The notes under the pieces: generated by a model
Told to the model about the DNA's origin: nothing
Databases searched by the model: none
Seen by the model: only the letters and a program-made list of their open reading frames with translations
Shown: one piece after another, positions 1,647 through 48,584 of the stretch
How the letters are laid out: the number at the start of each line of letters is the position of its first letter
How positions within the stretch are numbered: the stretch's first letter is position 1
Source: Octopus vulgaris
Lineage: Eukaryota
Assembly (NCBI GenBank): GCA_951406725.2
Contig: OX597825.1
Coordinates: 68,572,001 to 68,636,000, forward strand
DNA: 64,000 nucleotides
Reading direction: 5' to 3'
Translations under genes and position numbers: made by a program

Positions 1647-2934
1647 TTATTTCCGTTGGAAAAAAACTTCCAGTGTTTTCATGTGGGGGTTACTTTTAGG
1701 CCGTTTCTCTTTATTCTTAGCAGTTTGGATTTTCCTCTTTTGTGTTGGATTTGATGTTCTGTGATTGGGATTCCCATGAGTCATATTTCTGTCAACAGTT
1801 CTCTGTAGTTGCTGAGCAAAATGGTAATCTTGGTGTTCCAGCAGGTCCCAAACAAGGATTTTCTTCATGCAGTCTTGACATTCTACATAATCCACCTCAT
1901 CTCTTCTATCAGAATGCAATGAATAATCTGCAGAATGGCAAGAATCAACTGAATCCTCGTTAAAGACAGTCTGTTTGTCAAATGACGGCTTTTGAGAACA
2001 GGTCGACTTTTCCTGATAGGGAACAGGTACAGTATCACTTCTTAAACTCTCAGATGCATAAACTTCCTTCTCTTTCTCCTCCTCCTCATCATCATCAGTT
2101 ACATAAATTACAGATACCTCATCACCAGGAACATTACAAGTATCAGGAGCAGCAGTACCATCTGAGGAATCACAAGATTTCAATGCAAGGCCATTATTAT
2201 GAACAACATCTGTATTTGAAGAATTTGAAATGTCTTCTGTGGTGGAAATATTATCAAATTGAGTTGGAAATGAATTTTCAAAAACTACCCCTTGGTGTCC
2301 AGGTTGGAGTAATTTTTCTTCACCAGTAGATGAACCGACCGGTTTTACTGAATAGTCTTTTAGTTTCTGTATCTCATTTTGTTTCATTGCAAAGAAGCTA
2401 CTCGTATGTTTACTTTCAGCCTCGTCTCCCTCACTAGAAATTCCACTGGCATCAGGTGAAGAACCATTAGGTTTTAAAACTCCACTAAATGATTTAGGAA
2501 AAGAACTTTCCAAAACTTTCCGTGAAAAAAAACTTTCGATTGTATCTTTATTAAGTCTATTATTATCATCAGCATCATTCCCAGGAAGCTCTGGGATGGT
2601 GCTTGAACAATTTATTTGTCTTTGGTTTGTAGATGATGGCTCAATTTGTGAAACTTCAATGTTCTTTAAATATGATGTTAAAGTGTTATTCTGTGATATA
2701 AGAGACGGCTTCTTGATAGATTTTGAGTTGGAGGTCTTAAGCACCTTTTGGCTAAAGCCGTCAGTTTCCGCCTGTTGGATTTGTAAGCTAACGTTGTTGG
2801 CCACGAAGGATGACCTCACAGCTTGAGTATTGCTTATTTGTTTTTTAATGAGAGCAGAAATACTGCCAGTCTGAACAGAAGGAATGTCGACAAATTTTCC
2901 TACTGAAATACTAAGCATCAGAATTGGAGGTGAC
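1647..2934 (-). CDS. POLH: DNA polymerase eta, last coding exon (end of little-finger domain, disordered C-tail, UBZ, NLS, PIP box)
   Basis: Acceptor ttcgttatcAG at 2935-2936. Reads (W)SPPILMLSISVGKF (human WSPPLTMLFLCATKF). Contains FF motifs TIESFFSRK and TSSFFAMK, UBZ-type zinc finger ECQDCMKKILVWDLLEHQDYHFAQQLQ, basic NLS KRK..KRPK and terminal PIP box MKTLEVFF. Stop at 1647-1649. Confidence 0.95.
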
Positions 2935-3782
2935 CTGATAACGAAACAAAAAAGAAAAAAAGAAAAGGGATAAGATATTTTTAGAAGTAAAAATGATTGA
3001 GTTTACATTCAAGAGCATAAATTTCAAAGTGTCAACAATATGGACAAAGAGGGAAGGCACTTGAGAAAGGTATAAATGGCACACAATCTCATTCTATCGT
3101 GTCTTATAAATAAGAGGGGTCTTGTCTATGTAAGGACTGAATATTGTCACAGAAATAGGGCAGAAATTCTAAGTGAGGGACCAGACATAGGTCTTGTATT
3201 TATTTTTATATCTCCATGTTCTGACTTCAAATCCTACTCAAGATTTTATTCCTGATGTGAGTGACCTCAATTACTGTCATAAACCAGTTCAAAGAAAGCT
3301 TTTATTCAAACTTTATTTCTGCTTACCATCTAATCTGTTAATCACGGCCATCTAATGTTTAAGACATATTTTATATTAGGTAAAGCCAGTATCTATCAAT
3401 GTCATTCGACACTATGCTACATTTTCAATACAAAATAAGATAATTTTTTATCTATTACTATTGTAGAAAGGAATTAATGGTAGGATATTATAATTTATAA
3501 CAATTACTTTGGCAGCATCTTTAAGATGGTACGATTTTATCCCACCCTCTGCAATAATCTTACATCCAAATAATGATTAGTATTAAAAACAAAAAAGTAG
3601 TACAGAGCTAAAGTTATGAGAGATAAATGCAACAGTTACTACTGTTGATCATTATGACAATCAACATTAAAATTTAGTGCCATGGCCAAAATAGGAAATG
3701 ATAGGGTACTCTAAACATGTTATTCTTTCTAGTTTCATTCAGTTACATTCTGAATTCAAATCCTTTCATCATTCTGGTGTGA

Positions 3783-4040
3783 TCATCATCGTTTAACATC
3801 CGTTCTCCATGCTAGCATGGGTTGGACGGTTCGACCGAGGATCTGGGAAGCCAGAAGGTTGCACCAGGCTCCGGTCTTATCTGGCAATGTTTCTACAGCT
3901 GGATGCCCTTCCTAACGCCAACCACTCCGTGAGTGTAGTGGGTGCTTTTTACGTGCCACCTGCACTGGTGCCAGGCGAGGCTGGCGGATCGGATTGGTGC
4001 ATTTTACGTGCCACCTGCACGGAAGCCAGTCGAGGCGGCA
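3783..4040 (-). mobile_element. Non-autonomous retroelement with RTE-type 3' tail and (GAT)n end (family C)
   Basis: Shares ggcgttaggaagggcatccagctgtagaaac...ggacgttaaacgatgatg with other copies in the window. Confidence 0.75.
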
Positions 4041-4669
4041 CTAAAAAAAAAATTTCTCTCCCTCTTTCTTTCATGCACCATGCCTATGGTACCAGCAAAA
4101 ATGGATTTCTGAGTCACAATCTGAAGATGCATCACTTCTCTTAGAAAATACTGTTTTTCCATTAACCTTCTGACAATTTATTTGCAGTTTATTCTGTTAG
4201 TCTCCAGCTCTCTTCAGCTAAACTTCAGGTTCAGAGCTCATTTGACCCTTAAACAAGGGTATTGGTTCAGGTAACATCAGGGAGTGTTCACAAGTCCACA
4301 AACTGGTGGGACTGCATGATACACTTCTAAGGGCCATCCCACTTCCTGTTTTAGTCACAAGACTATTTCTGCTATCTGACCCATAACTGAAACCCTTTGA
4401 CAGGTACAACCACTTTGGGTCTAAGCATACTTGGGAAGAGTAGTGGTTAAGGTGTAGTTCTACACCCCACAAAACTCCACAATTCCTGAACTGGAGCATC
4501 AACACCCGATGCAATTCTGTGTCATGCCCGGGACAAAATACCAGTTATATACTGAGGTTCGATCCAATCAACTATTTTGCATTATGCCATCGCAAGGAAT
4601 CTCTATTAACCCTTTGGTTGGGTGTGGCTTATTGACACAGCTAACTTGTGAAGAAGACAGGTGTGGTAT

Positions 4670-4990
4670 ATACTCTTTTTACATGTTTCGGTCATTTGAC
4701 TGCGGCCATGCTGGAGCACCGCCTTTAGTCGAGCAAATCGACCCTGGGACTTATTCTTTGTAAGCCCAGCATCATTTGTCAAGCAATGCTAGGGGTACAA
4801 ACACAGACACACAAGCACATACATACATACATATATACAACAGGCTTCTTTCAGTTTCCGTCTACCAAATCCACTCAAGGCATTGGTCGGCCCAGGGCTA
4901 TAGCAGAAGACACTTGCCCAAGATGCCATGCAGTGGGATTGAACCTGGAACCATGTGGTTGGTTAGCAAGCTACTTACCACACAGCCACT
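4670..4990 (-). mobile_element. tRNA-derived SINE (family A, octopus OK/OR-type)
   Basis: Reverse complement of the 9396-9780 element, with an internal deletion. Confidence 0.85.
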
Positions 4991-5049
4991 CCTGTATCTT
5001 TTCCCTTATTTCCCCAGCCCCGTCCCGCACAAAAACACTTGTTATTTAT

Positions 5050-5390
5050 ACTTTGGAGAAGACTTTTATGGATTCCATGGACAGCGAGGCTCACCAATGG
5101 AGAAGTTCTTAACCAGATCAAGCTGAAACTGTCGCTGGAAGCTAGGATCACCAAGCATAGATGGATATATTTTGGTCATTATGCGGAGAAAATCCCTGGA
5201 GAAGGACATCAAGCTCGGAATGGTCAGTGGCAAGAGAGGATGAGGCCAACCAAGAACCTGCTGGCTTGACACCATTAAGAGTGACACGGGAATGGCCATA
5301 GCCAATCTGAAAGAAGCGACCCAGGATAGAACTGGCTGGAGGACACTGATCCATCGAGTAACCGAGAGTCGACTTCGGCTGAGCAGATAG
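5050..5390 (+). mobile_element. RTE-clade LINE 3' fragment (RT C-terminus, frameshifted)
   Basis: Reads WRRLLWIPWTARLTNGEVL...YFGH, then SLEKDIKLGMVSGKR..G.P..WLDTIK..DRTGWR, typical of RTE/BovB. Confidence 0.85.
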
Positions 5391-5412
5391 ATAAATAGAT
5401 TTATACCCAGCC

Positions 5413-5641
5413 TTAACCCTTTAGCGTTTAAACCGGCCATATCCGGCCAAAGATTTTCTGCCTGTTTTATGTTCAAACTAGCCATATCTGGTCTCTCACA
5501 CCAACCCTACAACATCGTTTTAAAAATTAACAGCTACCTCATCAAAATCTCATAGCTACAAGATAATGCATGATTAATTCAAAACAATGTGGATGAAGAA
5601 GCATTCATTTTGGCAGAATAATGCAAACACTAAAGGGTTAA
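5413..5641. mobile_element. piggyBac-like MITE; related degenerate copy at 59560-59745
   Basis: TTAA at both ends; TIRs CCCTTTAGCGTTT and AAACACTAAAGGG. Confidence 0.8.
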
Positions 5642-5676
5642 AGAGTTAAATGGGAAACAAAAACCATGCCACTTAC

Positions 5677-5855
5677 CATGATGCTTGATGCGGAGGGCTT
5701 AGATTGAATTGTTGCAGCAGAGAAAACGCACAATTAGCAATTTTCTCAGCACTGTATTGCACAACTGCTGTTGTACGACTGCTTGATTGAATTGTTCGAT
5801 TAACAGGACTTTGGAATCGAAGACTGGTAATCATCGATGTTGCAGTTCGTTTATT
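5677..5855 (-). CDS. POLH: DNA polymerase eta internal exon (179 nt)
   Basis: AG and GTAAGT boundaries. Reads NKRTATSMITSLRF...SSRTTAVVQYSAEKIANCAFSLLQQFN...ASW. Phase fits both neighbours. Confidence 0.92.
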
Positions 5856-5989
5856 CTAAAAATATTGAAGAATTAACAGTCAATAGTTTAAACTCTTTAA
5901 TTTATTTTATTCAGACTTAATTTGTTTAATGTGTTCCAGTTTTTTGAAAACAGTACAATGTGTCCCTGTCCATTGTGAAATGGTATGGT

Positions 5990-7152
5990 GCAGCTGTGTG
6001 GTAACAGGCTTGCTACCCAACCACATGGTTCAGTGTTCAGTCACATTGTATGATACCTTGGGTAAGTGTTTACTATAGCCTCGGGCTCACCAAAGCCATG
6101 AGTGGATTTGGTAGGCGGAAACTGAAAGAAGCCCATCATGTATATGCGTGTCCCTGTTTGTCCCCCACCACCATCGCTTGACAACTGATGTTGGTGTGTT
6201 TATGTCCCCATATCTTAGAAGTTTTGCAAAAAAGAGGGAGTAAGTACTAGGCTTATAAATGATGATGAATTTGTCAGACAATTTCAGGATGAACTTACAT
6301 TTTCTTTATCTTTAATTAGCCTTTCTTCAACTTCTGTAGCCAGTTGTTTCAACCAATGTTTCACCTGGAATAAACAGAAAAAAAAAGAAAAAATCTCAGT
6401 GTTCTGCTTCATAAAACAAACTTTAGGCACAGGAGTGGGTGTGCAGTAAGTAGCTTGTTTACCAACCACATGGTTCTGGTTTCAGTCCCACTGCGTGGCA
6501 CCTTGGGCAAGTGTCTTCTACTATAGCCTTGGGTTGACCAAAGCCTTGTGAGTGGATTTGGTAGATGGAAACTGAAAGAAGCCCGTCATATATATATGTG
6601 AGTATGTGTCTGTATTTGTCCCCCCAACATTGCTTGACAACCGATGCTGGTGTGTTTACGTTGCCGTAACATTAACAGTTCGGCAAAAGAGACCAATAGA
6701 AAAAGTACTAGGCTTACAAAGAATAAGTCCTGGGGTCGATTTGCTCGACTAAAGGTGGTGCTCCAGCATGGCCAGTCAAAAAGAGTAAAGAGTATATTCT
6801 ACATTATATCCTTTATCTGTTTCAGTCATTGCACTGCGGCCATGCTGGGGCACCACCTTGAAAAATTCTTAGTCGAATCAATTATCCCCAGTACTTATTT
6901 TTTTTTTTAAAGCCTAGTACTTATTCTGTCAGGGTCTCTTGCTGAACTGCTATGTTACAGGGACATAAACACACCAACACCAATGTCAACATATATACGA
7001 CAGGCTTCTTTTAGTTTCCGTCAACCAAATCCACTCACAAGGCTTTGGTTGGCCCAATGGTATAGTAGAAAACACTTGCCCAAGGTTCCACGCAGTGGAA
7101 CTGAACCCGAAACCATGTGGTTGGTAGGCAAGCTACTTACCACAGAGCCACT
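5990..7152. mobile_element. Three family-A SINE copies, about 5990-6256(+), 6426-6790(+) and 6810-7152(-), around the POLH 66-nt exon
   Basis: Similarity to the 9396-9780 element. Confidence 0.85.
6299..6364 (-). CDS. POLH: DNA polymerase eta internal exon (66 nt)
   Basis: ttccAG and GTAAGT boundaries. Reads VKHWLKQLATEVEERLIKDKEN (human VQWWLLQLAQELEERLTKDRND). Confidence 0.95.
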
Positions 7153-7682
7153 CACTTCAGACTAGCAGATTCGATTTTGCTTCAGTGGTGACACAAGTAT
7201 GCAACACTGATACACTACAACTATGGTAAAATGTGTATATGTCACTCTCATGGTCACTTCTGAGGTGATATCATTGACTTTGAAGTGTAGTTTTTCAACA
7301 CTGGATGTCATTAAAGAGATTTTTTCCAAAATAGAAAAGACAACTCACATTAAGTATGTTGTACTAGTAAAGAGTATTAAATATTTGGGTTTGGTCAGCC
7401 TGGAGTTTTAGAGGACACTTGCCCAAGGTGCCAAGCAGTGGGAAGCAAACTTAATCACACAGCCACACAAACCAATATATCAAGTCACATTTTTTTTGTG
7501 CCAAAGGGATAATAGTTATTGGACAGTAAAATAAATGATTGAAAAATCCCTTGACAGTAGTGCCCCAGCCCAACCATGAGTGGATTTGGTAGATGGAACC
7601 TGAAAGAAGCCTGTCATGTGCGTGTGCGTATATATATATATATATCTGCACGCATTTTTTTTCTCTCCTTCTTCTCTGTGTA

Positions 7683-7720
7683 TCTTTCTGTTGAAGAGCG
7701 TAGGCTCGAAACGTTAAAGA
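7683..7720 (+). ncRNA. Minimal type I hammerhead-ribozyme-like motif with variant core CUGUUGA, inside a repeat at about 7648-7850
   Basis: TCTTT-CTGTTGA-A-GAGC-gtag-GCTC-GAAA-CG-TT-AAAGA: helix I TCTTT/AAAGA, helix II GAGC/GCTC, palindromic AACGTT at helix III. Confidence 0.5.
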
Positions 7721-8423
7721 CTTGTTTTATTTATATTTCCTGAGCGCCATACTAATACAATTGTTTGTTTGTATTCCACCTGCCTTCGTCTTTTGTTTAT
7801 TTCCGTAAACCTGCCTTCGTCTTTTGTCTATTTTCATAAAGCTTCCCGTTATATATATATATAGGAGCACTCCGTCGGTTACGATGACAAGGGTCCCAGC
7901 TGATATGATCAACGGAACAGCTTGCTCGTGAAATTAACGTGCAAGTGGCTGAGCACTCCACAGACATGTGTATCCTTAACGTAGTTCTTGGGGAGATTCA
8001 GCGTAACACAGTGTGTGACAAGGCTGCTGGTCCTTTGAAATACAGGTACAACTCATTTTTACCAGCTGAGTGGACTGGAGCAATGTGAAATGAAGTGTCT
8101 TGCTCAAGGACACAACACTGTGTCTGTCCCCCACCATCTCTTGACAATTGATGTTGGTGTGTTTACATCCCTGTAACCTAGCGGTGTGGCAAAGAGACCG
8201 ATAGAATAAGTACTAGGCTTACAAAGAATATATCCCCGGGGGTTGATTTCTTCAACTAAAACCCTTTAAGGCAGTGCTCCAGCATGGCCACAGTCAATGA
8301 CAAACAAGAATAAAAGAATTACTTTTATTTTAACCATTTATCTATTCCTCTACCTGTCTAGTCATTAAATGATTTATATGTTCATACACACACACACAAA
8401 TTTCTCAATATAAGATGTCTTAC

Positions 8424-8547
8424 CTTGTCTCTTGTGTCTAAAGCAGCTTTACCAAGAAAGTTCTTGCTGCATCCTATTGATTTTGGAACTTGTCTTGCCG
8501 TCACTGCTTCATTATCAGATCCTCGACAAAGCGCATGAAGCCAGGTT
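8424..8547 (-). CDS. POLH: DNA polymerase eta internal exon (124 nt)
   Basis: tttAG and GTAAGA boundaries. Reads TWLHALCRGSDNEAVTARQVPKSIGCSKNFLGKAALDTRDK; PKSIGCSKNF is a Pol eta signature. Confidence 0.96.
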
Positions 8548-9395
8548 CTAAAGTAAACAAATTTTTCTTTGGTGGTCATTCAGTTTTACACAGATTGTAG
8601 CTCAAAGCCAATCTAACTACTACGTTATTTCTAGAAACTTTCTACAAAGTCAATCTATCAAGTATGCACATGTGCACACGAGTTCATATTTTTTGTCATT
8701 AGAATGTTCACTGATTGTTAACCATGGCCTCACAAGTCAGACCAACGATGCCATTTGTTTGCAGTCCAAGACAAAAGAACATCCATGATGGATGTGATTT
8801 TTCTAAACAAAACGCTTGTTCATAAAGTGATGTTTCCAGATTACTGTATAACTATGTCCAGGTTGTCTGTTGTTCAACAGGCAAAATCATGACTTTATTT
8901 TGAAACTGGCAGAAGTTGGCATCAAGAAGGACACTTAGAATAGAAGGCTCTACTCCAACGCAAACTCATCTGACCCCCACAGCAATGGTAAGGTAGATGT
9001 ATCAATGAGGATTTTGGCTTTTATCTCTTCCACATGCCAACGGCACAGGTGCCTGTAAGGCGATGCTGGTAACGATCCTGCTCAAATGGTGCCTCCTACA
9101 TGCCACTGGCACGGAAGCCAGTTAGATGGTGCTCTTAGCACCCTACTAGCATGGGGCAGAAGTGCCAGTAAGGTGAAGCCGGCAACGATCACACTCGAAT
9201 GGTGCCTTTTATGTGCCACTGGCACAGAAGCCGGTTAGCTGCTCTGTCAACGATCACGCTCGCATGGTGCTCGTAGCAGTTTGGTAAAAAATAAGTACCG
9301 GGATCAAATTTGTTTGACTAAAAGTTCTTCAAAGCAGTGCCCCAGCATGGCTGCAGTCTAATGACTGAAACAAGAAAAAGATATCTAGACACATA

Positions 9396-9780
9396 CGCAG
9401 GAGTGGCTATGTGGTAAGTAGCTTGTTTACCAACCACATGGTCCCAGGTTCAGTCCCACTGCGTGGCACCTTGGGCAAGTGTCTTCTACTATAGCCTCGG
9501 ATCGACCAAAGCCTTGTGAGTGGATTTGGTAGACGGAAACTGAAAGAAGCCCATCATGTATATATATATATGCGTGTGTGTGTTTGTCCCCCTAGCATTG
9601 CTTGACAACCGATGCTGGTGTGTTTGTGTCCCTGTCACTTAGCAGTTCGGCAAAAGAGACCGATAGAATAAGTACTGGGCTTACAAAAGAATAAGTCCCG
9701 GGGTCGAGTTGCTCGATTAAAGGCGGTGCTCCAGCATGGCCGCAGTCAAATGACTGAAACAAGTAAAAGAGTAAGAGTAT
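9396..9780 (+). mobile_element. Full-length tRNA-derived SINE (family A); further copies at about 11910-12295(+), 15250-15630(-), 15848-16227(-), 32488-32830(+), 49360-49725(-), 50715-51060(-), 54568-54982(-), 56350-56600(-), 61070-61410(-)
   Basis: Head gcaggagtggct.tgtggtaag...ggttcagtccc (A/B boxes), internal (TA/TG)n, tail gactgaaacaagtaaaagagta. More than ten copies in the window. Confidence 0.9.
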
Positions 9781-10108
9781 ACGACTGTGGATGTGTTTGA
9801 TTTATTGTCTTTACATGCTTGCTTCCTAACCACATCATGGTTTTGAGTTCAAACCCACTGTGTAGAATTTTGGGCAGACCAAACCTGGTGAGTGCATGTG
9901 CATGTGTGTGCACACATGCGTCTTCCTGTCTTGGCATTCCGTATTAGTTGTAAATGAGTGTCACTGTCATACAAACAGTATCGTTCATTTCCAATATTCT
10001 ACAAAGAAATGTCTGGCCATGGGGAAATATTAGTTTGCTTGGAAATAGGCAAAAGTTGGCAACAAGAAGGGCCAAGGTGGTGTCTATGAATATCAAAAGG
10101 TTTCTTAC

Positions 10109-10228
10109 CCCGTTTTACTTCCATAAATGTCTATCAGGTGTTCTTTGGAGAACTGCCATAAATCAGACATCATCTCTATTCCATGGTCACGTTTTAAGTC
10201 ATCACCAAATTTACCGCCAAGGTTACGG
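10109..10228 (-). CDS. POLH: DNA polymerase eta internal exon (120 nt, thumb/HhH)
   Basis: ttttgcAG and GTAAG boundaries. Reads RNLGGKFGDDLKRDHGIEMMSDLWQFSKEHLIDIYGSKTG. Confidence 0.95.
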
Positions 10229-10579
10229 CTGCAAAAAGAAAAACCAGGGAAAAATATCAGAAAGTGGAGGGGGGGGGTTAAGTTGATTACATCAACCCCA
10301 CCAAAAAAAAAGGATGAAAAGCAACTTGAATTTGAATGCAGAATGTTAAAAACGGATGAAATGCAACTAAGCATTTTGCCTGGCATGCTAATGGTTCTGA
10401 TGGCTTGCCTCTATAATAATAATAATAATAATCCTTTCCACTATGGGCACAAAGCCTGAAACTTCGGGGGAGGGGATAAGTTGATTACATTGACCCCAAT
10501 GCTCCATTGGTACTTATTTATCGACCCCGAAAGGATGAAAGGCAAAGATGACCTTGGTTGAATTTGAACTCTCGTTGAC

Positions 10580-11050
10580 AGAGTGGCTAACCGGCTTCCA
10601 TGCCAGTGGCACATAGAAGGCACCATTCGAGTGTGATCGTTACCAGCATCACCATACTGGCACTTGAGCCCCGTGCTGGTTGGGTGCTAAGAGCACCATC
10701 CAAGCGTGATCGTTGCCAGAACGGCTAACTGGCCTCTGTGCCGGTGGCACGTTTTAAAGCCACCATTCGAGCATGATCGTTACCAACATCGCCTTACTGG
10801 CACCTATGCTGGTGGCATGTGTAAAAAGATTCGAGCGAGGTCATTGCCAGTACCGCCTGACTGGCCCCCGTGCCGGTGGCACATAAAAGCACCCACTACA
10901 CTCTCGGAGTGGTTGGTGTTAGGAAGGGCATCTAGCTGTAAAAACTCTGCCAGATCAAGATTGAAGCCTGGTGCAGCCATCTGGTTCACCAGCCCTCAGT
11001 CAAATCGTCTAACCCATGCTAGCATGGAAAGCGGACATTAAACAATGATG
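10580..11050 (+). mobile_element. Family-C RTE-tailed element with internal tandem repeats; other copies at about 9020-9280, 14491-14920(-), 22415-22695, 23310-23737, 26447-26605, 49105-49262(-)
   Basis: Repeated gtgccggtggcac..aaaagcaccat units followed by the shared 3' tail. Confidence 0.8.
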
Positions 11051-11199
11051 AACCAAATGTCACTAAGCATTTTGTCTAGTGTGCTAACAATTTTGCCAGC
11101 TTGCCGCCTTAATAAAATAATAGTTTCAAATTTTGGTATAAGTCCTGCAATTTTTGAGAGGGAGGGTATTAGTTGATTCCATCAACCTCAATACTTCAC

Positions 11200-11420
11200 T
11201 GAGAAACGTTAGCACACCGGGCCAAATGCGTAGCCGTATTTCGTCTGTCGTTACGTTGTGAGTTCAAATTCCGCCGAGGTCGACCTTGCCTTTCATCCTT
11301 TCGGGGTCGATTAAATAAGTACCAGTTACGCACTGGGGTCGATATAATCGACTTAATAGCTATTTCTGTCCTTGTTTGTCCCCACTGTGTTTAGCCCCTT
11401 GTGGGTAATAAAGAAATAGA
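11200..11420 (+). mobile_element. tRNA-derived SINE with Nin-like domain (family B); other copies at about 13930-14032, 24392-24527, 27178-27408, 36036-36280, 41725-41875, 59806-60038
   Basis: B box gagttcaaattcc, central gtcgactttgcctttcatcctttcggggtcgataaa..agtacc, tail aataaagaaata. Short TSDs at the 36 kb copy (agggaccttcat) and the 59.8 kb copy (atattgttggaag). Confidence 0.88.
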
Positions 11421-11740
11421 AATAGGTATTTTATCAACCACAATAGAATGAAATGTAAAGTTAACCTCAGCAGGATTTGAACCCAGAAACCAGTCATACA
11501 GAACCAGAAGAATTATTGAAAAGAATTTTTTCCCCACTAACATTAATGATTTTGCCAAACTATTGCCCTAATAATTTTATACCTTCATATAAAGCCTGAA
11601 ATTTGGCAGAGGATATTAATCTTAAATAACTTGACTGGTAACTTATTTCATCAAACCCCAAAAAGAGGAAAAGCAGAGTCAAACTCTATGAGATTTGAGC
11701 TCAAATAATATAACAAATGAAATCAAAAGAGATGCCTTAC

Positions 11741-11844
11741 ACTTTGCTTATCGGGATTGTTTTGAAGAGTTCTTCAACACCTGAATGTGGCAGAACTGTC
11801 TGTTGATTTGGCTTATGAAGACCAGCTGCTAATTTAGACAGCAT
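11741..11844 (-). CDS. POLH: DNA polymerase eta internal exon (104 nt); most 5' exon detected
   Basis: catcAG and GTAAGG boundaries. Reads MLSKLAAGLHKPNQQTVLPHSGVEELFKTIPISKV, the Y-family LAKLA..L.KPN.QT motif. Confidence 0.95.
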
Positions 11845-12557
11845 CTGATGAAGAGGGAATCAAAAAAGAAAGAAAAGATTTATTTAATTTCACCAATTAA
11901 TATTGCATAGGCATAGGAGTGGCTGTGTGGTAAGTAGCCTGCTTTCGGACTGCATGGTTCCAGGTTCAGTCCCACTGCGTGGCACCTTGGGCAAGTGTCA
12001 TCTACTACAGCCTCGGGCCAACCAAAGCCTTGTGAGTGGATTTGGTAGACAGAAACTGAAAGAAGCCTGTCGTATATATGTATGTATATGTGTGTGTGTT
12101 TGCCCCCCCCCCCCCCAATATCGCTTGACAGTCAATGCTGGTGTGTTTACGTCCCCATAACTTAGCAGTTCGGCAAAAGAGACCGATAGAATAAGTACTA
12201 GGCTTACATAGAATAAGTCCTGGGGTTGATTTGCTCGACTAAAGGCAGTGCTCCAGCATGGCCACAGTCAAATGACTGAAACAAGTAAAAGAGTTAGAAA
12301 TAATTTCATAATTTCTTTAAAACTTTTATTTTTTCAGCCATTGCACTGTGGTCTAAACACTGCTTCGAAGGGGGTGGGGGGGTCTTAATTAAACAAATCA
12401 AGGCAGTACATTTTTTTGATAAGCCTGATATTTTATTGGTGTCCTTTGCCAAACTAAGTTATAGTGATGTAAACAAACCAATACTAGCGATCAAGGAAAC
12501 AAATACAATGAGAAACGCTCACATACGATGGCCTTATTAACCCATCTATGATGGCAT

Positions 12558-12657
12558 NNNNNNNNNNNNNNNNNNNNNNNNNNNNNNNNNNNNNNNNNNN
12601 NNNNNNNNNNNNNNNNNNNNNNNNNNNNNNNNNNNNNNNNNNNNNNNNNNNNNNNNN
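12558..12657. other. Assembly gap (exactly 100 N, placeholder of unknown true size)
   Basis: Run of 100 n characters. Confidence 0.99.
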
Positions 12658-15600
12658 ACCTATGGCAAAAAAAAAATTAATCCTTGTTTGGTTAAGAAGC
12701 TCTCTTTACAACCATAAAACAGCATGAGATCTGTTAACATATCCTATATATATGTTATATATATAGTTGACATATCCTATATATATATCATCACCATCAT
12801 TTTCACTTCTACTATTACATACTTGCATGGAGAAGTGAGTCACATGAGACATGGCTCATCATCAGCTGGGATGCACTGCTTAAAAAATAGAAGGTGATTT
12901 TTCATTAGACATGCCTTTCAGAAAGTCCTGCAGGCTACATGTGGCCTACAGGTGGTATGTTGTCCATGACTGGGCTAGAACCTTCACAAGGTATTTCTAA
13001 CAGACCATACGATTTACTGAGTATGTGTTCAGCGCATAAAATAAAAAGAAATCATAAAGTCAATACTAATATCGTATTTTCCAGTATAAATGTCGAATTT
13101 TTAAAACTCAAATTTACAGCTAAAAAAGTGAAGTTGACTTATATACCACGACTTTGGAGGACCAAAAATTTCATGTGAAATTCAACAGGATTTGGAAAGA
13201 TAGTGACGATGCTTAAATGTTTATGATACATGCTTATACTATACACCTGTCATCTTGTATGCTGCAAATTCTGTATTCTAAAGACAATATCCCTACTATT
13301 TTAGTTTTAATAATTTTTTAAAATATGAAATAAAATTTATTTTATAGAGGATTTATGTATAAATGACATTTATATAAAACATCTAATAAAAATTTATCAT
13401 AATTTTGAAAATAAGTGAATACCATGTTTTATTAAATGTTATTAAGAGATACTTTGTTTCCTGGAATCTTGGTATAGTTTTCTTGAATTCCTGAGGTTTG
13501 CTGAACCTAATCTGGAAAACGCTGGTTCAAGTGAAAGATAGCAAGATTACATGACAAGGGAGGTAACTTCTAAGTTACTAAAATGAGGCCATTAGAAGAT
13601 TTTTTTTTTTACTGTATCTCAAACAACTTGGTAATAATAAATTCTATGAAGAGGCACACAGCAGAAGGTCTTAAGGGAAGAAGCATCCTCATTCACCCTA
13701 CTGCACGTGTTTCAGCCCTTTAAGGGGGCTGGGCTGCATCCAGGTCATGACTCCTGGATATTGCTTTGCTGTTACATTCTGTGTTATTGTCTGTATTACA
13801 ACCTGCACCCTCCTGGTTGGTTGGTTAAGGTGACTCAGAGCCAAGGTACCTGGGGTGTTGTAATCAGTTCAGTTCAGGTTGAACCACCAGTTGGCTGTAA
13901 GGTAAATTATGTCTTTTAAAATTCACTTCCAGTACCAGTTGCACACTGGGGGGTCGATGTAATCGACTTAATCCCTTAGTCTGTCCTTGTTTGCCCCTCT
14001 ATGTTTAGCCCCTTGTGGGCAATAAAGAAATAAGATTGTGAAAATAACTCTGAAACTAAATATTTTTAAGGGAAAACCTCTTCTGGATGTGATGGAAGTA
14101 TCTCCCTTTAAATGGTTCCAGTTTGTTCGAAAAGAGTTTATGTACAATTTCCTTTCACTAGTCAGCAAGTGGGGAAGTCCATCTTTTCAACATGAAGTTT
14201 TCTCTCATGAGGGCACTGACAAAACATTTCAGAAAACAAATAATTTCTTATAAAAAAAAAACAACATATAAACATAATTGACAACTGAAAATTCCTGAAA
14301 AGTAAACAAAAAACTGGAAATTTTACCAGTGAGTGTGTTAAATAATAAGGCACAGAAAGAAAATGACTCTCCCCAGACACAACAGAACATGCTTCAACAC
14401 ACGAACTCATATAAAGAATCTGGCAAACCAAATCCCAAAACGAAATAAACAAAAATATTTATTTGTAAATTTAGTGAAGATTAATTACTTTCATCATCAT
14501 CATCATCATCATCGTTTAACGTCCGCTTTCCATGCTAGCATGGGTTGGACGGTTCAACTGGGGTCTGGGAAGCCCGAAGGCTGCACCAGGCCAGTCAGAT
14601 GTGGCAGTGTTTCTACAGCTGGATGCCCTTCCTAACGCCAACCACTCCGAGAGTGTAGTGGGTGATTTTATGTGCCACCGACACAGGTGCCAGACGAGGC
14701 TGGCAGACGGCCACGCTCGGATGGTGTTTTTTATGTGCCACCGACACAGGTGCCAGACGAGGCTGGCAGACGGCCACGCTCGGATGGTGTTTTCTTATGT
14801 GTCACCGACACAGGTGCCAGACGAGGCTGGCGGACGGCCACGCTCGGATGGTGTTTGTTACGTGCCCTCAGCACGGAGGCCAGTCATTGCGGTACTGGCT
14901 ACGGTCACGTTCGGATGGTTTGATTCAAATATTCCTGATAGCCAAGTTTATTTTTTTTTTCTATATTCCTGACTTTATTTACTTTCATTTTCAATCCTAC
15001 ATTTGAAGGGTAGCCGATCTTCGAATATTGAACTCCCATGTATGTGACATTACATTTTTTAAAGACAGATGTGACCGAGCGATAGTCAGCTGCTATTTGT
15101 AGCTGGTCAAGGAACCTTGTTTGTTCTTGAAGTAACGGTAATATGCTAGGGAAAGTTGGTCAGTGTTTTGGAATAGTTCCATACCTCATGGTAACAGAAA
15201 ATAGGTTTGAAAATGGTTGATGGTAGGTGGTGGTGGTATAAATATCTTCTTTGTTTTACTTATTTCACTCATTTTATTGTGGCCATGCTGAGGCACCGCC
15301 TTGACAGGTTTAGGCAAATGCAGCCAATCCCAGTAATTTTTTTTCTAAGCCTGGTACATATTCCATTGGTCTCTTTTTTTTTTCTGAAGACGTAAACAAA
15401 CCAACACCGGTTGTGAAGCAATGGCAGGGAACAAACAAAGCACATACGTACATACACACCTATATACGACGGTCTTCTATCAGTTTCTGCTTACCAAATC
15501 TACTCCCAAGGCTTCGGTCAGCCCTGGGCTATAGTAGAAGACACTTGTCCAATGTATCACGTTGTGGGATTGAACGCCAACTACATGGTTGGGAAGCAAA

Positions 15601-16689
15601 CTTCTTACCACACAGCCACGTCTGCGCCTGTATGTGTAAATATGGAAATAAAAATAATAAAATATTTAGAAACTTGTTTTTCAGAATCGTAATTTGTGAT
15701 TCCTGTTCTATGGAAGGCAGGGAAATTTAGGGGAAATAACCCCATCCTTTGCATTTACCATTGGGTATGGATCTTTGATGGATAGCTATTAAAAAAAAAA
15801 AAACTACCCGAAATCGATTTACTATTTTAACCTCGATAATAAAAATATACTCTTTTACTGGTTTCAGTCATTTGACTGCGGCCATGCTGGGGCACCACCT
15901 CTAGTCGAGCAAATCGACCCCAGGACTTATTCTTTGTAAGCCTGGTACTTATCCTATCGGTCTCTTTTGCCGAACTGCTAAGTTACGGGGACGTAAACAC
16001 ACCAGCATCGGTTGTCAAATGATGTTGGGGGGGAGAAACACAGACACAAACATATATATAAACAAATATACGACGGGCTTCTTTCAGTTTCCGTCTACCA
16101 AATCCACTCACAAAGCTTTGGTCAGCCCGAGGCTATATCAGAAGTCACTTGCCCAAGGTGCCACGCAGTGGGACTGAACCCGGAACCATATGGTTGGTAA
16201 GCAAGCTACTTACTACAAAGCCACTCTTCCAAAGAACATTTTTATTATTGAATATTGTAGTATAGATTCTCATTCATATCTCATCAAATTTCTTACAATA
16301 TCTGTGTGTGTATGTGTACGCGCGCGCGTTTTGTGTAAGGAAATATCTTGATGTCTTAAACTTGAAATATTACGTAAACAATAATAGATCATCACCGGTA
16401 TTTATTATTTTATTTTATCGGCCTCACCAGAAGGACGAAAGCCAAAGACCACTTCAAAGGGATTTGAACTCACAATCCAAAGAGCCTTAATTAAATACAC
16501 CAAACATTTTAAAACCACAACAATCGCGCGCGTGTAGTATATATTTGTGCGTCTGCGATTAGCTTTACTATGTTCCAAACTACCATAACCTTTTTCCTTT
16601 TTTTTTTAAATACTTATTTGTGCACATATAATGTCAATTAAGTACCGTTGGAAAGTGAACTGTTCTGTGATGTTCTTTTCTAAATATAC

Positions 16690-19300: not shown

Positions 19301-19380
19301 TTTCAATATGTGACCGCGTGTGTATCGTTGGCAATTTTCTTTCTTCATCTTCCCTTCCTTGGACCTTTCCTTTTTTCAAT

Positions 19381-19415
19381 ATTTCTGACGAAGAGCTCCA
19401 CTCGAAACGTTAAAT
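19381..19415 (+). ncRNA. Minimal type I hammerhead-ribozyme-like motif, inside a repeat at about 19313-19500
   Basis: ATTT-CTGACGA-A-GAG-ctcca-CTC-GAAA-CG-TT-AAAT: intact CUGANGA and GAAA core, helix I ATTT/AAAT. Confidence 0.6.
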
Positions 19416-20197
19416 CCTCCTTCTTTCTTTCCTTTCCTGAGCGTCCAATAACACTATACTTGTTCCATGTCCTCGTGTTGTTTTGTTTTCTGATGTTTGT
19501 GATGAATAAACTATCGTCTGAATTACGCAAAAATGAAAATAACACCGACATCTCATATTAAGAGATATATTTATCAAAATTACTTTAAAATATCTTGAAA
19601 TACTAAAGAGTAAATTCATCCAATAAAATTGTCATTGGCTTCAACCACAACCTCATGACGACTTTAGAATCACCTGCAACTCTTCTGGACGGTCTCCTTG
19701 TTTAAGGTGGTGAATGCTGCCATAATTCTTGCCTTCAGTTTTGTTGGTCTCTCGTTCAACTGCACTCCTCACATAATAATTAAGGGGGGTTACCATTTAG
19801 GGAGTTGTGGAAACCATGTCAGAAGAGACATTGGATTTCAGAACAGTCTTCTGGCTTGTTTGTCCCTGTTGAATTGCCTAGCATGTGTGTGTGTAATGAT
19901 ATATATATATATGCATACATACATACATAACACAGCCGGCCTGATATCATTGTGTGGTACCACAAAGAACAGACATGTTCTGCTGTATGAATCAGCTGCC
20001 CTCTAGACACCAAAGTGGTGAGAAAAAAATAAGAGAAAGAGGACTTCTATGGACTGTCAATAAGGAACTTGCAAATCCAGTGTCCAAGATACACTTTCAG
20101 ATTCATAGCTTTTATTATTGGAGCAACAAGATACATACCAATTTGTCAGGAACAAAGTATGGCTAAACTTGGGATCTTGGGGAGAGAATGCATATCT

Positions 20198-21099: not shown

Positions 21100-21848
21100 T
21101 GAGAAAAACAGCACCATGATGAAATTCAGTTTGCCAGAAATTTGGAAACGACATGCTGTACTGCTTGGCATTTGTGCTGGAAGCTCCAATACGAACATTT
21201 CAGAGTGATTGGGTGTCAATCTGAGCCCCCAAAATATGTACCCAGAGTGATAAAAAATCAAACATCCAGTCAACATCCTGGTATTTCTCGTGATCACTAG
21301 TGATGGTGATGTCATAAACCCATTCACCTTTCCACACAGCCTCAGACTCAACATGTAGGCCTACATCAAGTGCCTGGAGGAGGTAGTGCTGCACTGGGTC
21401 AAGAGGGGAGTTGCTGGAACACCCTATGTCTGGCAACATGACTCTGCACCGTGCCACACAAGCAGGAGAATCCAGTCATGGCTATCAGACAATTTCTGAA
21501 ACCACAACACCCTAACATCTGGCTACCTAACTCCCCAGACTGCAACCCCTTTGATTATTATGTGTGGGGTGCAGTTGAACAAGAGACCAGAGACCAACAA
21601 AACCCCTTGTAACATCAAAGATGAACTGAAAGCAAGAATCATAGCAGCATTCACCAACTTTAACAAGGAGAATGTCCAGAAGAGTTGCAGGAAATTCTAT
21701 AGTTGTCTGGAGGCCATGGTTGAAGCTAATTGTGATTTTATTGATTAAGTTTAATCTTTAGTATTTCAAGATCATTTTATGTAATTTTAGTATGTCAGTG
21801 ATATTTTCATTTCTCTGTAATTTAGACGACAATTTTCATTCACCACAC

Positions 21849-21880: not shown

Positions 21881-22928
21881 TGTATGTATGTATGTATCTG
21901 CAAAGAAACAGCAATTTTAGTAAAACATATTAAACAACACTAATAATAAATCAAAAAATGTAAAAATAAACAAGCTTTTGACGGTTTTATAGATATTTCA
22001 AAATTGTGACGCTATGATGCTAGGTGTTTCCATTATTTTGTCCAACTCCTGTATATATATATATATATATATAAAAACTGTACTGGGAGAAGAAGAAACG
22101 AAACGGAACGAATCGAATCGACGCGAAGGCGCTCAGTCATACAATAGTGTAATAAATAAAATATATGCATACATACATACATATATGTACGTACCTACAT
22201 CTACATGTATATATACATGCATATATAAATATATATACGTGAGTACAGGACACCACAAATAGATGCAGAACTCAACGAGAACGAAAACGTAAAAACAAGC
22301 ATGGAACGAACCTTTTTTTACAAAGAAAAAACAGAGTACTAGACAAACTACACAAGGAAAAATCCCCTTCATCACCTGTCCCTAGTTCAACTGCAGCGTG
22401 TTTCGGACCGAGACCTTTGATATTATGTCATGCTTGAGAAGAAGACGCACCAAGCCAAACAAAACCGCAGTTGTGGAAGATACCAGTGTCATGCAAATGG
22501 CACCCGTACTGTGGCACGTAAAAGCACCCATTACACTTTCGGAGTGGTTGGCATTAGGAAGGGCATCCAGCCATAGAAACCATGCGAAACCAGACTGGAG
22601 TCTGGTGCAGCCTTTCAGTTTGCCAGCCCTGGTCAAACTGTCAAACCCATGTCAGCATGGACGACGGATGTTGATTTATGATGATGCTGATGATGAATAT
22701 GATATATATATATCCGGAGTACGCCACTGTAATAGTGATTGGAAATCATCAAAAAATTTGTCCGTGACTCTTCCACTTTTTCTCATCCTCTTTTTACCTT
22801 ACTTCTTCTACTTCCACTTTTCTACATTTGTCGCCACCATTTACACCTACACCGACATTTGGCCGTGTGTGTATCGTTGGCGATTTTCTGTCTCCGTCTT
22901 CCCTTCCTTGCCCCTTTCCTTTTTCTAT

Positions 22929-22963
22929 GTTTCTGACGAAGAGCTCTGCTCGAAATGTTAAAT
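22929..22963 (+). ncRNA. Minimal type I hammerhead-ribozyme-like motif (same family as 19381)
   Basis: GTTT-CTGACGA-A-GAGC-tct-GCTC-GAAA-TG-TT-AAAT. Confidence 0.55.
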
Positions 22964-23149
22964 CCTCCTTCTTTCTTTCCTTTCTTGAGCGTCCAATAAC
23001 ACTATACTTGTTCTATGTCCTCGCGTTGTTGTGTTTTCCCTTTGTTCATGTTTGGAGTAACTATATATATATAGGACGCCATGATAGATCGTTAGCTCCT
23101 ACACGCATTTTTTTCTCTACTTGTTTCTCTCCTTGTTTTTTTCTGTGTA

Positions 23150-23187
23150 TCTTTCTGTCGAAGAGCGTAGGCTCGAAACGTAAAAGA
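23150..23187 (+). ncRNA. Minimal type I hammerhead-ribozyme-like motif with variant core CUGUCGA (same family as 7683)
   Basis: TCTTT-CTGTCGA-A-GAGC-gtag-GCTC-GAAA-CG-TA-AAAGA, with a GUA cleavage triplet. Confidence 0.5.
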
Positions 23188-23752
23188 CTTTTTCTATTTC
23201 TATTCCTGAGCGCTATACTAATACATTTGTTTGTTTGTACTCCACCTGCCTTCGTCTTTTGTTTATTTTCGTAAACTTTCCCTTTATATATATATATATA
23301 TATATAAATAAATATCAATGGAAATAGTTGTTGTGATACCTGTGCCGGTGGAACATAAAAAGCACCATCTGAACGTGGCCGTTGCCAGCGCCGCCTCGAC
23401 TGGCTTCTGTCCCGGTGGCACATAAAAAGCACCATCCGAACGTGGCTGATGCCAGCGCCGCCTTGACTGGCTTCTGTGCCGGTGGCACATAAAAAGCACC
23501 ATCCGAACGTGGCCGATGCCTGCGCCGCCTTGGCTGGCTTCTGTGCCGGTGGCATGTAAAAAGCACCCACTACACTCGTGGAGTGGTTGGCGTTAGGAAG
23601 GGCATCCAGCTGTAGAAACACTGCCAGATCAGACGAGCCTGGTGCAGCCCTTGGCTTCCCAGACCCCGGTCGAACTGTCCAACCCGTGCTCGCGCGGAAA
23701 ACGGACGTTAAACGATGATGATGATGATGATGATGATATATATATATATATA

Positions 23753-24752
23753 CATGGTCTGATCAATAAGTATTTGGACTCTTGCCATAGTAATAAAGCT
23801 AATGCATGCCGAGTGAAGCTGCTTAGCACAGACTGACCTTGAACTCTGCTGTGCATGTGCACTAAGTTTTAACATTGCAGCTCACTTCCACTGTTTACAG
23901 CAGTGCTTGGAAGAAAGGTGTGTAGCGCGTGATCGTCGCATTGGCCATGACAGAGAAAGTTGAGTAGAGAATCTGCATCAAATTTTGCCAAAAGCTTGGC
24001 AATACCTGCTCAGAGGCCTACGCAAAGTTTCAAAAAAGTTTTCATTGATCTCGATACAGTCAAGAAGATCTTGTTCAGCCAAAACCTGAGTGTGTTTTTG
24101 GTTAGCTGAAAGCAGTTTTGGAACAAATTCAGCAGACATGCATCTCATACCCAAATCTTCAGTGATAATGGACTGAACTGAACCAAAACTAATCTGCACA
24201 TCCTCTGATAACTCATGGATGGTGATTCGACAATTTTCCCTCACAGCTGCGATATTTTTCTCAGTTCTGCCAGTAGCGGGTGACCCAGAACATTTGTCAA
24301 TATCAACATTTTTCTGGCCATCTTCAAAATATCCGAATCTCTCGTACATTTGTGTGCGGCTCATACACTCCTCTCCATACACTTTCTGCACCCTTGCCTT
24401 TCATCCTTTCGGGGTCGATTAAATAAGTACCAGTTATGCACTGGGGTCGATATAATCGACTTAATCTGTTTGTCTGTCCTTGGTTGTCCTCTCTGTGTTT
24501 AGCCCCTTGTGGGTAGTAAAGAAATAGGTATTGCCATGACAACTTTTTCTCTTATGATCAATGCAGCAATCACACATCCTACACACCTTCCTTCAAAGCA
24601 CTGCTGTAAACAGCGGAAGTGAGTTAGAATATTGAAACTTAGTGAGCATGCAGAGCAGAATTCAAGAACAATCTCCACCAAGCAGCTTCAGTCTGTGTGC
24701 TTTAGCTTCATTACTATGGCAACAACAGTCAGGATACTTAGTGATCAGACCT

Positions 24753-48054: not shown

Positions 48055-48584
48055 TTTAGTTAGTTAGTTAATTATTTGGCTCAAAAAGCAAGGCCATGTA
48101 GGGGGACATGAAGTTATGTACAGGGTGGTGTTCATGTAAAGAGTTCAGGCCACTTGTGGTCAAGGGAGACTTTGAACCGAGTGGTCGTTGGCATCTTCAC
48201 TATCTCGTCCGGCAGCTTATTCCACGGATCCGCAACCCGGACGGAGAGAGCCCCTCTCCTTCGATTGAGATAAAATCGTCGCAGATAGAGCTTTTCAGAG
48301 TGACCCTGCAGCCGACGCTCTGGAGCAGGAGTGAAGAACAGCTCTTTTGAGAGGTTACACTTTCCGCTTATGATGTTGTGAGCAAGAATGAGATCACCAC
48401 GGTGTCGTCGTTTTTCTAGAGAATAAAGGTCGAGTGTCTTCAGCCCTTCTTCATAAGACAAATGCTTGAGACCAAGAACCATGCGGGTAGCCAGCTTTTG
48501 GACTCTTTCGAGATGCTGTATGTCTTTGAGGAGATAAGAAGAGCCTTGAATCCCGTACTCCAATTTGCAGTATGGAAGAGACAT
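48055..48584 (-). mobile_element. 5'-truncated CR1-clade LINE (RT C-terminus, 3' UTR and (TAAC)n tail)
   Basis: Reads KLEY...DIQHLERVQKLATRMV.GLKHLSYEE.L..L.LYSLEKRR.RGDLI...RV...WNKLP. Tail ttagttagttag at about 48056. Confidence 0.92.

What the first reader, a model, noticed from the sequence alone, without database searches (positions are those of the whole stretch)
22739..23285. Two minimal hammerhead-like motifs in tandem: possible retrozyme or Penelope-derived unit
Seen: two same-strand motifs about 220 nt apart (22929-22963 and 23150-23187). Each has the type I hammerhead order: helix I, CUGnnGA, extra A, helix II (GAGC/GCUC), GAAA, very short helix III, NUH, helix I'. Helix I differs between them (GUUU/AAAU versus UCUUU/AAAGA) yet pairs in both, which looks like covariation. 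The downstream flanks are also loosely similar (ttcctgagcg..atac..). Established: Penelope-like elements and retrozymes carry minimal hammerheads with a palindromic helix III that cleave as dimers, and an extra A after A9 occurs in some natural hammerheads. Inference: these abundant repeats may be ribozyme-bearing non-autonomous retroelements, and a tandem pair could release an RNA of about 220 nt that might circularise.
Basis: partly seen in the sequence, partly recalled or inferred. Interest (0 to 1): 0.75.

Follow-up and report, generated by a model that had tools for sequence, protein, structure and literature searches.

The report
Two Penelope tail fragments with hammerheads
The two hammerhead-ribozyme motifs are real, but each belongs to its own repeat family, and the two pieces are likely the tail ends of Penelope-type jumping genes that likely landed separately in the same TA repeat of an octopus genome, so this is probably ordinary and not a device for making a small RNA circle.

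Summary
Both motifs are present at the stated coordinates and fit the published minimal hammerhead of Penelope-like elements (PLEs). The window holds 4 such motifs; shuffles give 0.05. They are not one unit. Motif 1 lies in element A1 (22717-23061), motif 2 in B1 (23074-23284), with (TA)6 between and (TA)n outside. Each has a solo sister in the window (19308, 90% identical; 7646, 85%), while A and B are only about 60% alike. Public assemblies hold thousands of matching contigs; the listed A-to-B joints are single contigs with other breakpoints. In a double hammerhead the A/B cross-helices have only three A-U pairs before a mismatch, and the 223-nt piece between the cut sites is not self-paired. 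The same motif lies just behind GIY-YIG PLE genes in two other animals; no octopus parent gene was found. Host: an Octopus species. One oddity: family B has U at the normally invariant core position A6 (A in 0.45% of depth in the main run). Verdict: new members of a known kind; the retrozyme-pair reading is not supported.

The parts
22717..23061 (+). Element A1: 345-bp copy of hammerhead repeat family A, (TA)n on both sides; inferred 3' end (pseudo-LTR piece) of a PLE
   Evidence: sister A2 90% identical over 179 columns
22717..22859 (+). Rare 5' extension of A1, inferred upstream 3' UTR of a longer parent; no PLE protein match
   Evidence: summed contig depth about 1,800-6,400 against 0.6-2.3 million further 3' (to 23038); listed contigs 10 and 11 of run X2 end at 22859
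22929..22963 (+). Minimal type I hammerhead motif 1 (core CUGACGA, extra A, predicted cut after 22959); helix III AUGU, where most copies have ACGU
   Evidence: C at 22956 in 90% of depth in X2
23039..23061 (+). Possible PLE 'tail' of A1, present in only part of the copies
   Evidence: sister A2 match stops at 23038; depth falls from 1.50 to 0.35 million and an A-to-A joint leaves at 23037; a dip in depth alone is weak evidence
23062..23073 (.). (TA)6 run between the two elements, inferred shared target site
23074..23284 (+). Element B1: 211-bp copy of hammerhead repeat family B, (TA)n on both sides
   Evidence: sister B2 85-90% identical
23150..23187 (+). Minimal type I hammerhead motif 2 (core CUGUCGA with U at position 6, extra A, predicted cut after 23182)
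   Evidence: A at 23158 in 0.45% of depth in X2
23285..23306 (.). (TA)11 run at the 3' end of B1
19308..19490 (+). A2: solo copy of family A (core at 19385), TA-rich left flank, no family B neighbour
7646..7849 (+). B2: solo copy of family B (core CUGUUGA at 7688) between two (TA)n runs, with a 31-bp duplication near its 3' end; no family A neighbour; in a polymerase eta intron, antisense

Best explanation
The two motifs sit in two different repeat families, A and B, each with solo copies, and they are likely short 3'-end (pseudo-LTR) pieces of two related Neptune-type Penelope-like elements that were likely inserted separately into one (TA)n tract. Likely mechanism: the PLE protein nicks (TA)n DNA with its GIY-YIG nuclease and starts reverse transcription at a fixed site about 80-100 nt 3' of the hammerhead. 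It copies through the uncut hammerhead and usually stops about 75-80 nt upstream of it, leaving a 200-bp insert. A second insert landed in the TA run beside the first. The hammerheads would work, if at all, as same-family dimers in the parent transcript, probably helped by the element's protein. At this locus the mixed pair is predicted to cut poorly and is a by-product. Shown: motifs, borders, solo copies, abundance, weak cross-pairing. Inferred: parent element, clade, insertion order, RT start and stop sites.
For: Solo sisters of each element. Identity 90% and 85% within families, 58-63% between them. (TA)n at both ends of A1, B1 and B2. Match to the min-HHR consensus 'U-rich, CUGANGAH, G...C, GAAAN, NU H, AU-rich' (PMC4209133 supplement), whose authors say most such motifs are single and probably truncated PLEs. 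The same GAAGAGC...GCTCGAAAC motif lies on the same strand behind a GIY-YIG-type ORF in 2 of 112 metagenome loci (L055 about 680 nt behind the stop, RVT_1 E 5e-8, CxxCxxC linker; L008 about 100 nt). Across 35 distinct arm pairs helix I pairs 92 times against 70.6 +/- 4.7 shuffled, 0 of 5000. A1 and B1 both end 102 nt after the cut site. Single-contig A-to-A and B-to-B joints both leave 24 nt before that end, like the PLE tail. (TA)n bias is reported for Naiad and Hydra, and microsatellite bias is mentioned for Neptune. PLEs cover 6.83% of O. vulgaris.
Against: No octopus RT or GIY-YIG gene is linked to A or B: none in the window, no genome is held, and the published Hydra-1_Obim hammerhead is different. 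Only 2 of 112 loci show an ORF link, and those are other animals. Two raw-read runs carrying the same species label as X2 gave only 7 and 82 matching reads in 1,934 million letters each, which does not fit a very high copy number unless they are another species or were filtered. With the hammerhead removed, A/B similarity is weak (score 41 against 21.7 +/- 6.3, shuffle maximum 46). Close adjacency has P about 0.02 (uniform) to 0.08 (39 TA runs) per window, so it is not trivially expected.
Confidence: 0.72

Rival explanations
1. A and B are each self-propagating, fixed-length (about 200 nt) non-autonomous mini-elements of PLE origin (hammerhead-bearing SINE-like units, or monomers of same-family retrozyme arrays elsewhere). 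They would be transcribed on their own and copied by a PLE protein. The adjacency here is still incidental.
For: Sharp 5' edges in depth (A: 1,825 at 22830-48, 21,097 at 22849-67, 597,616 at 22868-86; B: 1.27 million from 23077) and A2 starting at the same edge. One A-to-A joint (23037 to 22859, depth 63) and one B-to-B joint (23260 to 23077, depth 31) re-enter at those edges. Vertebrate retrozyme families derive from pLTRs and can be mostly monomers (preprint 10.64898/2026.07.22.740005).
Against: The tandem joints are single contigs at low depth, and no high-depth head-to-tail joint is listed. B2 starts about 24 nt inside the B edge. A1 runs 143 nt past the A edge, so a longer parent exists. 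A fixed edge is also expected if RT runs off the 5' end of a parent transcript. The tool warns that dips in depth can come from filtering.
Confidence: 0.18
2. One reading: A1 plus B1 is one retrozyme-like unit; the two hammerheads fold as a dimer, cut after 22959 and 23182, and release a 223-nt RNA that circularises.
For: Same strand, spacing within the 170-400 nt retrozyme range (PMC7229834). Helix III of A1 and B1 can cross-pair (A-U, U.G, G-C, U-A). Two other A-to-B joints exist in run X2.
Against: Different families, (TA)6 spacer, solo copies. Cross helix I has three A-U pairs, then G.G or C.U. One active site would use the U6 core; changes at position 6 lower activity in Mg2+ (A6C data). 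The piece folds no better than shuffles (-31.3 against -33.6 +/- 3.8; as a circle -24.7 against -30.1 +/- 3.9). The other A-to-B joints (23030 to 23137, 23021 to 23150) have different breakpoints, one contig each. The pair is on the strand opposite to the polymerase eta gene.
Confidence: 0.05
3. The motifs are chance matches in low-complexity DNA, or belong to a repeat class unrelated to PLEs.
For: Flanks are pyrimidine-rich. Helix I is short and U-rich. Rfam gives no hammerhead hit. No parent ORF was found in octopus.
Against: 4 observed against 0.05 expected. The free position N7 varies in family B (C, A 24%, U 26%). The same architecture lies behind PLE ORFs in other animals.
Confidence: 0.05

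Closest known systems
Minimal hammerheads (min-HHR) in pseudo-LTRs of metazoan Penelope-like elements (Cervera and de la Pena 2014, PMC4209133)
   Same: Type I order, extra nucleotide between 9 and 10.1, G10.1-C11.1, GAAAC-GU-H with palindromic helix III, short helix I, U-rich 5' flank, mostly single dispersed copies; occasional close pairs.
   Different: Helix II is only 4 bp. Family B has U6, whereas all 44 rows that I saw of their alignment have A6 (their descriptor fixed the core). No octopus entry in the supplement text searched (1 of 2 files was not searched).
Neptune-type EN+ PLEs (C-terminal GIY-YIG, CX2-5CxxC linker); also Hydra and Naiad clades (Craig et al. 2021, PMC8557442)
   Same: Insertion into (TA)n, 5'-truncated pieces, hammerhead near the 3' end, optional tail. 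The same helix II motif follows a linker-bearing GIY-YIG ORF in L055.
   Different: No ORF is linked in octopus, so the clade is inferred. Hydra-1_Obim has another hammerhead with a longer helix III. Naiads lack canonical hammerheads.
PAc, the Poseidon element of Anolis (Frangieh et al. 2024, PMC11167929)
   Same: RT starts at two sites 85-92 nt 3' of the hammerhead cut site (from their +26 and +111-118), which gives the tail; uncut RNA is the main template. Here the ends lie about 79 and 102 nt 3' of the cut site.
   Different: In PAc the ORF starts inside the hammerhead; there is no such ATG in helix II here. The mechanism was shown in vitro for PAc only.
Non-LTR retrozymes of animals (PMC7229834; preprint 10.64898/2026.07.22.740005)
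   Same: Type I hammerheads about 200 nt apart, non-coding, low GC, PLE connection.
   Different: Retrozymes are tandem repeats of one unit with the same hammerhead and give highly self-paired circles. Here the two units are about 60% alike, split by (TA)6, and the piece between is unstructured.

Membership tests
PLE minimal hammerhead (min-HHR) | Type I order with helix I, core, helix II, GAAA, NUH | tested here: met
PLE minimal hammerhead (min-HHR) | Core CUGANGA (or U3-A8 variant) | tested here: met
   Family A only: CUGACGA in A1 and A2
PLE minimal hammerhead (min-HHR) | A at core position 6, family B | tested here: not met
   U in B1 and B2; A in 0.45% of depth in X2, 0.08% in X11, 0 of 46 reads in X22, but 5 of 5 reads in X21. 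Family B is a core variant.
PLE minimal hammerhead (min-HHR) | Extra nucleotide between 9 and 10.1; G10.1-C11.1 pair | tested here: met
   4 of 4 window motifs
PLE minimal hammerhead (min-HHR) | Palindromic 15.2-16.2 for dimer helix III | tested here: met
   ACGU in A2, B1, B2; A1 has AUGU but 90% of family depth has C
PLE minimal hammerhead (min-HHR) | Self-cleavage as a dimer | not testable with these tools
   needs an assay
EN+ Penelope-like element (Neptune type) | Parent ORF with RT and C-terminal GIY-YIG upstream of the same 3' sequence | tested here: inconclusive
   none in the window; no genome held; same motif type follows such ORFs in L055 and L008
EN+ Penelope-like element (Neptune type) | Insertion into (TA)n | tested here: met
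   A1, B1 and B2 on both sides, A2 on the left
EN+ Penelope-like element (Neptune type) | Optional 3' tail and partial tandems | tested here: inconclusive
   A2 stops at 23038; A-to-A and B-to-B joints leave 24 nt before the end, one contig each; depth falls near both ends; shorter than the 30-40 bp described
Non-LTR retrozyme | At least two consecutive repeats of one unit, each with a complete hammerhead | tested here: not met
   A1 and B1 60.6% identical, (TA)6 between; no period near 220 found by TRF. Same-family tandems elsewhere are hinted by two single contigs.
Non-LTR retrozyme | Highly self-paired monomer | tested here: not met
   z +0.6 linear, +1.4 circular
Non-LTR retrozyme | Abundant circular RNA | not testable with these tools
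   needs RNase R RNA-seq or northern blot

The most novel reading that the evidence does not exclude
Families A and B are self-propagating 200-nt hammerhead mini-elements with fixed ends that borrow a PLE protein and are copied from uncut RNA, and family B reached very high copy number with U at core position A6. That would be a natural experiment showing that hammerhead catalysis is dispensable, or retuned, for PLE mobility in vivo while the fold is kept.
Probability: 0.15. Interest if true: 0.5.

Novelty: new member of a known kind. Interest (0 to 1): 0.22.

Why it matters
As a locus it matters little: minimal hammerheads in truncated PLE ends are described by the thousand in animal genomes, and octopus is rich in PLEs. 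The part worth keeping is family B. Why PLEs keep hammerheads is open; in vitro, cleavage is not needed for insertion (PMC11167929). A very abundant family with U6 next to a sister family with A6 gives a ready pair for testing whether catalysis matters, and it would be missed by searches that fix the core as CUGANGA.

Tried and rejected
No whole genome is held, so no genome-wide count, junction census or parent search was possible. Rfam: 0 hits at gathering score in the window; 4 chance hits and no hammerhead up to E 10. The octopus-like pattern with its TTT flank: 0 in viral contigs, 0 in metagenome contigs. The U6 pattern: 0 in genome contigs, 0 in viral contigs. Expression: no RNA holder listed; run X11 is only guessed to be RNA, so its 1,662 contigs are not taken as evidence of transcription. 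Idea that the downstream YUGAGCG is a general switch pairing with helix II: it appears in the best fold of B1 only among the 4 motifs, and GAGC lies 10-60 nt downstream in 11 of 28 metagenome families against 8 of 28 upstream and 3 of 28 further down, so it was dropped as a general feature. The helix II probability printed used a wrong index and is not used. The 5' extension of A1 gives no PLE-like protein (frame 1, one other frame, tblastn). The octopus repeat paper's supplement has no sequence match to either motif; the Craig supplement has 'gctcgaaac' twice, neither in an octopus entry. No tRNA gene in the window; the bacterial promoter scan is not informative for an animal. Lunse et al. 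2017 (PMC5785218) is not held; I saw only its citation and a review's summary. Earlier-findings look-ups by sequence, place and one word set were empty.

Full report
1. Observation. Both motifs are in the sequence as described (parsed). Motif 1 (22929-22963): GUUU, CUGACGA, A, GAGC-UCU-GCUC, GAAA, UGU, H17 = U22959, AAAU. Motif 2 (23150-23187): UCUUU, CUGUCGA, A, GAGC-GUAG-GCUC, GAAA, CGU, H17 = A23182, AAAGA. A descriptor (core CUGNNGA, helix II of 3 bp or more, helix I of 4 bp or more) finds 4 motifs in the window, at 7688, 19385, 22933 and 23155, all on the + strand. 200 block-wise dinucleotide shuffles give mean 0.05 and maximum 2. Rfam does not detect them.

2. Host and setting. The ORF at 1647-3002 (minus) carries a UBZ finger and is 89% identical to DNA polymerase eta of Octopus bimaculoides; the only other hit among 7,996 scored candidates was Argonauta at 36%. 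The host is therefore an Octopus species (inference). Exons for residues 212-838 lie at 11850-1650 on the minus strand; residues 1-211 have no match in the window. The pair may thus lie in a long intron, on the strand opposite to the gene, or the assembly lacks those exons (there is an N gap at 12558-12657). No genome is held.

3. Anatomy. The region reads (TA)5-TCCG, A1 (22717-23061), (TA)6, B1 (23074-23284), (TA)11. A1 has a solo sister A2 (19308-19490, 161 of 179 columns identical) and B1 a solo sister B2 (7646-7849, 152 of 179), each with TA-rich flanks and without the other family. Between families identity is 58-63%. The A1/B1 alignment scores 79 against a shuffle maximum of 34, but only 41 against 21.7 +/- 6.3 (maximum 46) once the hammerhead is left out. 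So the families are probably related but distinct. Both A1 and B1 end 102 nt after the predicted cut site.

4. Other copies. The stretch is held by 20 of 24 listed runs from 9 studies. I laid 4 of them. In X2, 29,483 contigs matched, and 1,662 in X11. Summed depth in X2 is 1,800-6,400 over 22716-22848, rises to 0.6-2.3 million over 22868-23038, falls to 0.35 and 0.23 million over 23039-23076, and is 1.0-6.7 million over B. Depth is no copy number and the tool warns that dips may come from filtering, so I use it only as a sign of great abundance and of likely edges. No listed piece spans the stretch, and none of the 16 listed pieces (of more than 31,000) crosses the TA run. The listed joints between A and B (23030 to 23137, depth 50; 23021 to 23150, depth 37) are single contigs with breakpoints unlike ours. 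One A-to-A joint (23037 to 22859) and one B-to-B joint (23260 to 23077) both leave 24 nt before the 3' end and re-enter at the 5' edge; 4 further rows of that table were not shown. Against the picture of high abundance: raw-read runs X21 and X22, with the same species code as X2, gave only 7 and 82 reads in 1,934 million letters each, none at 99% identity; I cannot tell whether they are another species or were filtered.

5. Variation. In X2, 90% of depth has C at 22956, which restores the palindrome ACGU; A1 is a decayed copy. In family B the free position N7 (23159) varies (A 24%, U 26%), while position 6 (23158) is A in only 14,642 of 3,254,498 depth units (0.45%), 0.08% in X11 and 0 of 46 reads in X22; in X21 5 of 5 reads have A, with at least 7 other differences. 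30 of 70 variant rows were hidden; by the tally of change types a T-to-G at 23158 is excluded but a T-to-C is not. U6 is thus a family trait, at least among contigs within 85% identity.

6. Link to PLEs. Most matches fall into repeat families; a few look like chance matches in bacterial coding DNA. In 2 of 112 loci a PLE-type ORF lies upstream on the same strand: L055 (RVT_1, E 5e-8; CGNCQQC linker and YVGKT) and L008 (E 4e-12 to L055). The second L055 piece had no Pfam hit, so GIY-YIG and Neptune are read from motifs described in PMC8557442. Helix I was not in the pattern, yet over 35 distinct arm pairs (62 matches, window included) it pairs at 31, 29, 20 and 12 of 35 for positions 1-4, total 92 against 70.6 +/- 4.7, 0 of 5000 shuffles; the rows are related, so this is not a probability. 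In the largest family (42 copies) shared sequence ends mostly near 75-80 or 105-115 nt past the motif, with variable 5' ends, the tail pattern of PLEs. No PLE protein match exists in the window.

7. Would the pair work as a unit? In a double hammerhead the 5' arm of one motif pairs with the 3' arm of the other (established model; my reading of the dimer geometry, figure not seen). Within families helix I has 4 bp (A) and 5 bp (B). Across, A1 with B1 gives U-A, U-A, U-A, G.G, U-A, and B1 with A1 gives U-A three times, then C.U. Helix III can cross-pair with one wobble. The cut at 22959 would need the U6 core with a 3-bp helix I. A6C lowers activity in Mg2+ and favours Mn2+ (PMC3088659 and PMC7151607, passages); I found no data on A6U. 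The 223-nt piece folds at -31.3 kcal/mol against -33.6 +/- 3.8 for shuffles. Adjacency has P 0.023 if four motifs fall uniformly and 0.075 if they fall into the 39 TA runs; a review states that PLEs tend to insert into or next to existing copies (PMC6765202, passages).

8. Mechanism. Most likely (0.72): short 3' pieces of two related TA-targeting PLE families, copied from uncut RNA by RT starting at a fixed site 3' of the hammerhead, inserted separately into one TA tract. For the Anolis element, RT starts 85-92 nt 3' of the cut site, cleavage needs the protein and is not needed for insertion (PMC11167929, parts 1-2 of 4). All steps for octopus are inferred. Rival (0.18): self-propagating fixed-length mini-elements.

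9. What is known. PMC4209133 (parts 1-2 of 4 and part 2 of one supplement) defines the min-HHR, reports thousands per genome, mostly single, and low activity. PMC8557442 (passages, section 11, supplement tables) gives clades and TA targeting and lists octopus Naiad and Hydra families whose hammerheads differ from these. PMC7229834 (parts 2-3 of 6) and preprint 10.64898/2026.07.22.740005 (parts 1-3 of 5, supplements closed) define retrozymes as tandem repeats of one unit. PMC13282606 (part 1 of 3 and supplement search) gives PLEs 6.83% of O. vulgaris in 190 families; its repeat library was not in the supplement text I searched and may already contain A and B. Searches for octopus + Penelope + hammerhead and for A6U or the U6 core strings listed nothing that describes these families; I saw listings only. 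Lunse et al. 2017, the main paper on PLE hammerhead variants, was not available and may cover U6. Published lists with A6 throughout (44 rows, 34) come mostly from descriptors that fix the core, so they cannot show that U6 is rare. Earlier reports of this scan reached the same kind of verdict in other genomes; I did not test them.

10. Verdict. Real motifs, ordinary origin, new members of a known kind. Interest 0.22; the U6 family is the only lead worth a follow-up.

Noticed in passing
window 1650-11850 (minus): Six exons of DNA polymerase eta (residues 212-838); the exons for residues 1-211 are not in the window, which implies an intron over 52 kb or an assembly break (N gap 12558-12657).
   Followed up: partly
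window 7688, 19385, 22933, 23155: All four hammerhead motifs lie on the + strand, opposite to the polymerase eta gene; may reflect selection against sense copies, but four cases are too few.
   Followed up: no
window 22075-22140 (minus): Short piece with CTGAGCG followed by a pyrimidine-rich stretch and (TA)n, like the 3' part of families A and B but without a hammerhead; may be a third family or chance.
   Followed up: no
window 22985-22991, 23206-23212, 19437-19443, 7740-7746: YTGAGCG about 25 nt behind each cut site could pair with the 3' strand of helix II; seen in the best fold of B1 only and not enriched in other animals' families.
   Followed up: partly
window 7778-7840: 31-bp tandem duplication near the 3' end of B2; run X22 shows similar go-back joints of 40-52 nt in family B.
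   Followed up: no
window 22498-22696, 23340-23725, 14491-14920, 10572-11051, 56832-57186: Abundant repeat with a 63-67 bp tandem head and a (GAT)n tail, on both sides of the finding; looks like an octopus SINE (label recalled, not tested).
   Followed up: no
window 4670-4991, 6430-6780, 9400-9775, 11915-12295, 15846-16226, 49359-49726, 54627-54982: A second abundant family of about 370 bp, many copies at 70-88% identity.
   Followed up: no
window 19498-19806, 21529-21847, 23978-24400, 48132-48638: Decayed fragments that resemble Tc1/mariner transposons (first three) and a LINE end (last); labels recalled, Pfam gave no hit for the two ORFs tested.
   Followed up: partly
L061, L077, L102: In another animal's family, pairs of the same hammerhead lie close together on opposite strands (L061, L077) or as a short tandem (L102), as described for PLE insertions.
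   Followed up: no
runs X21 and X22: Same species code as X2 but almost no matching reads; the few in X21 carry A at position 6 of the family B hammerhead, which hints that U6 is derived.
   Followed up: no
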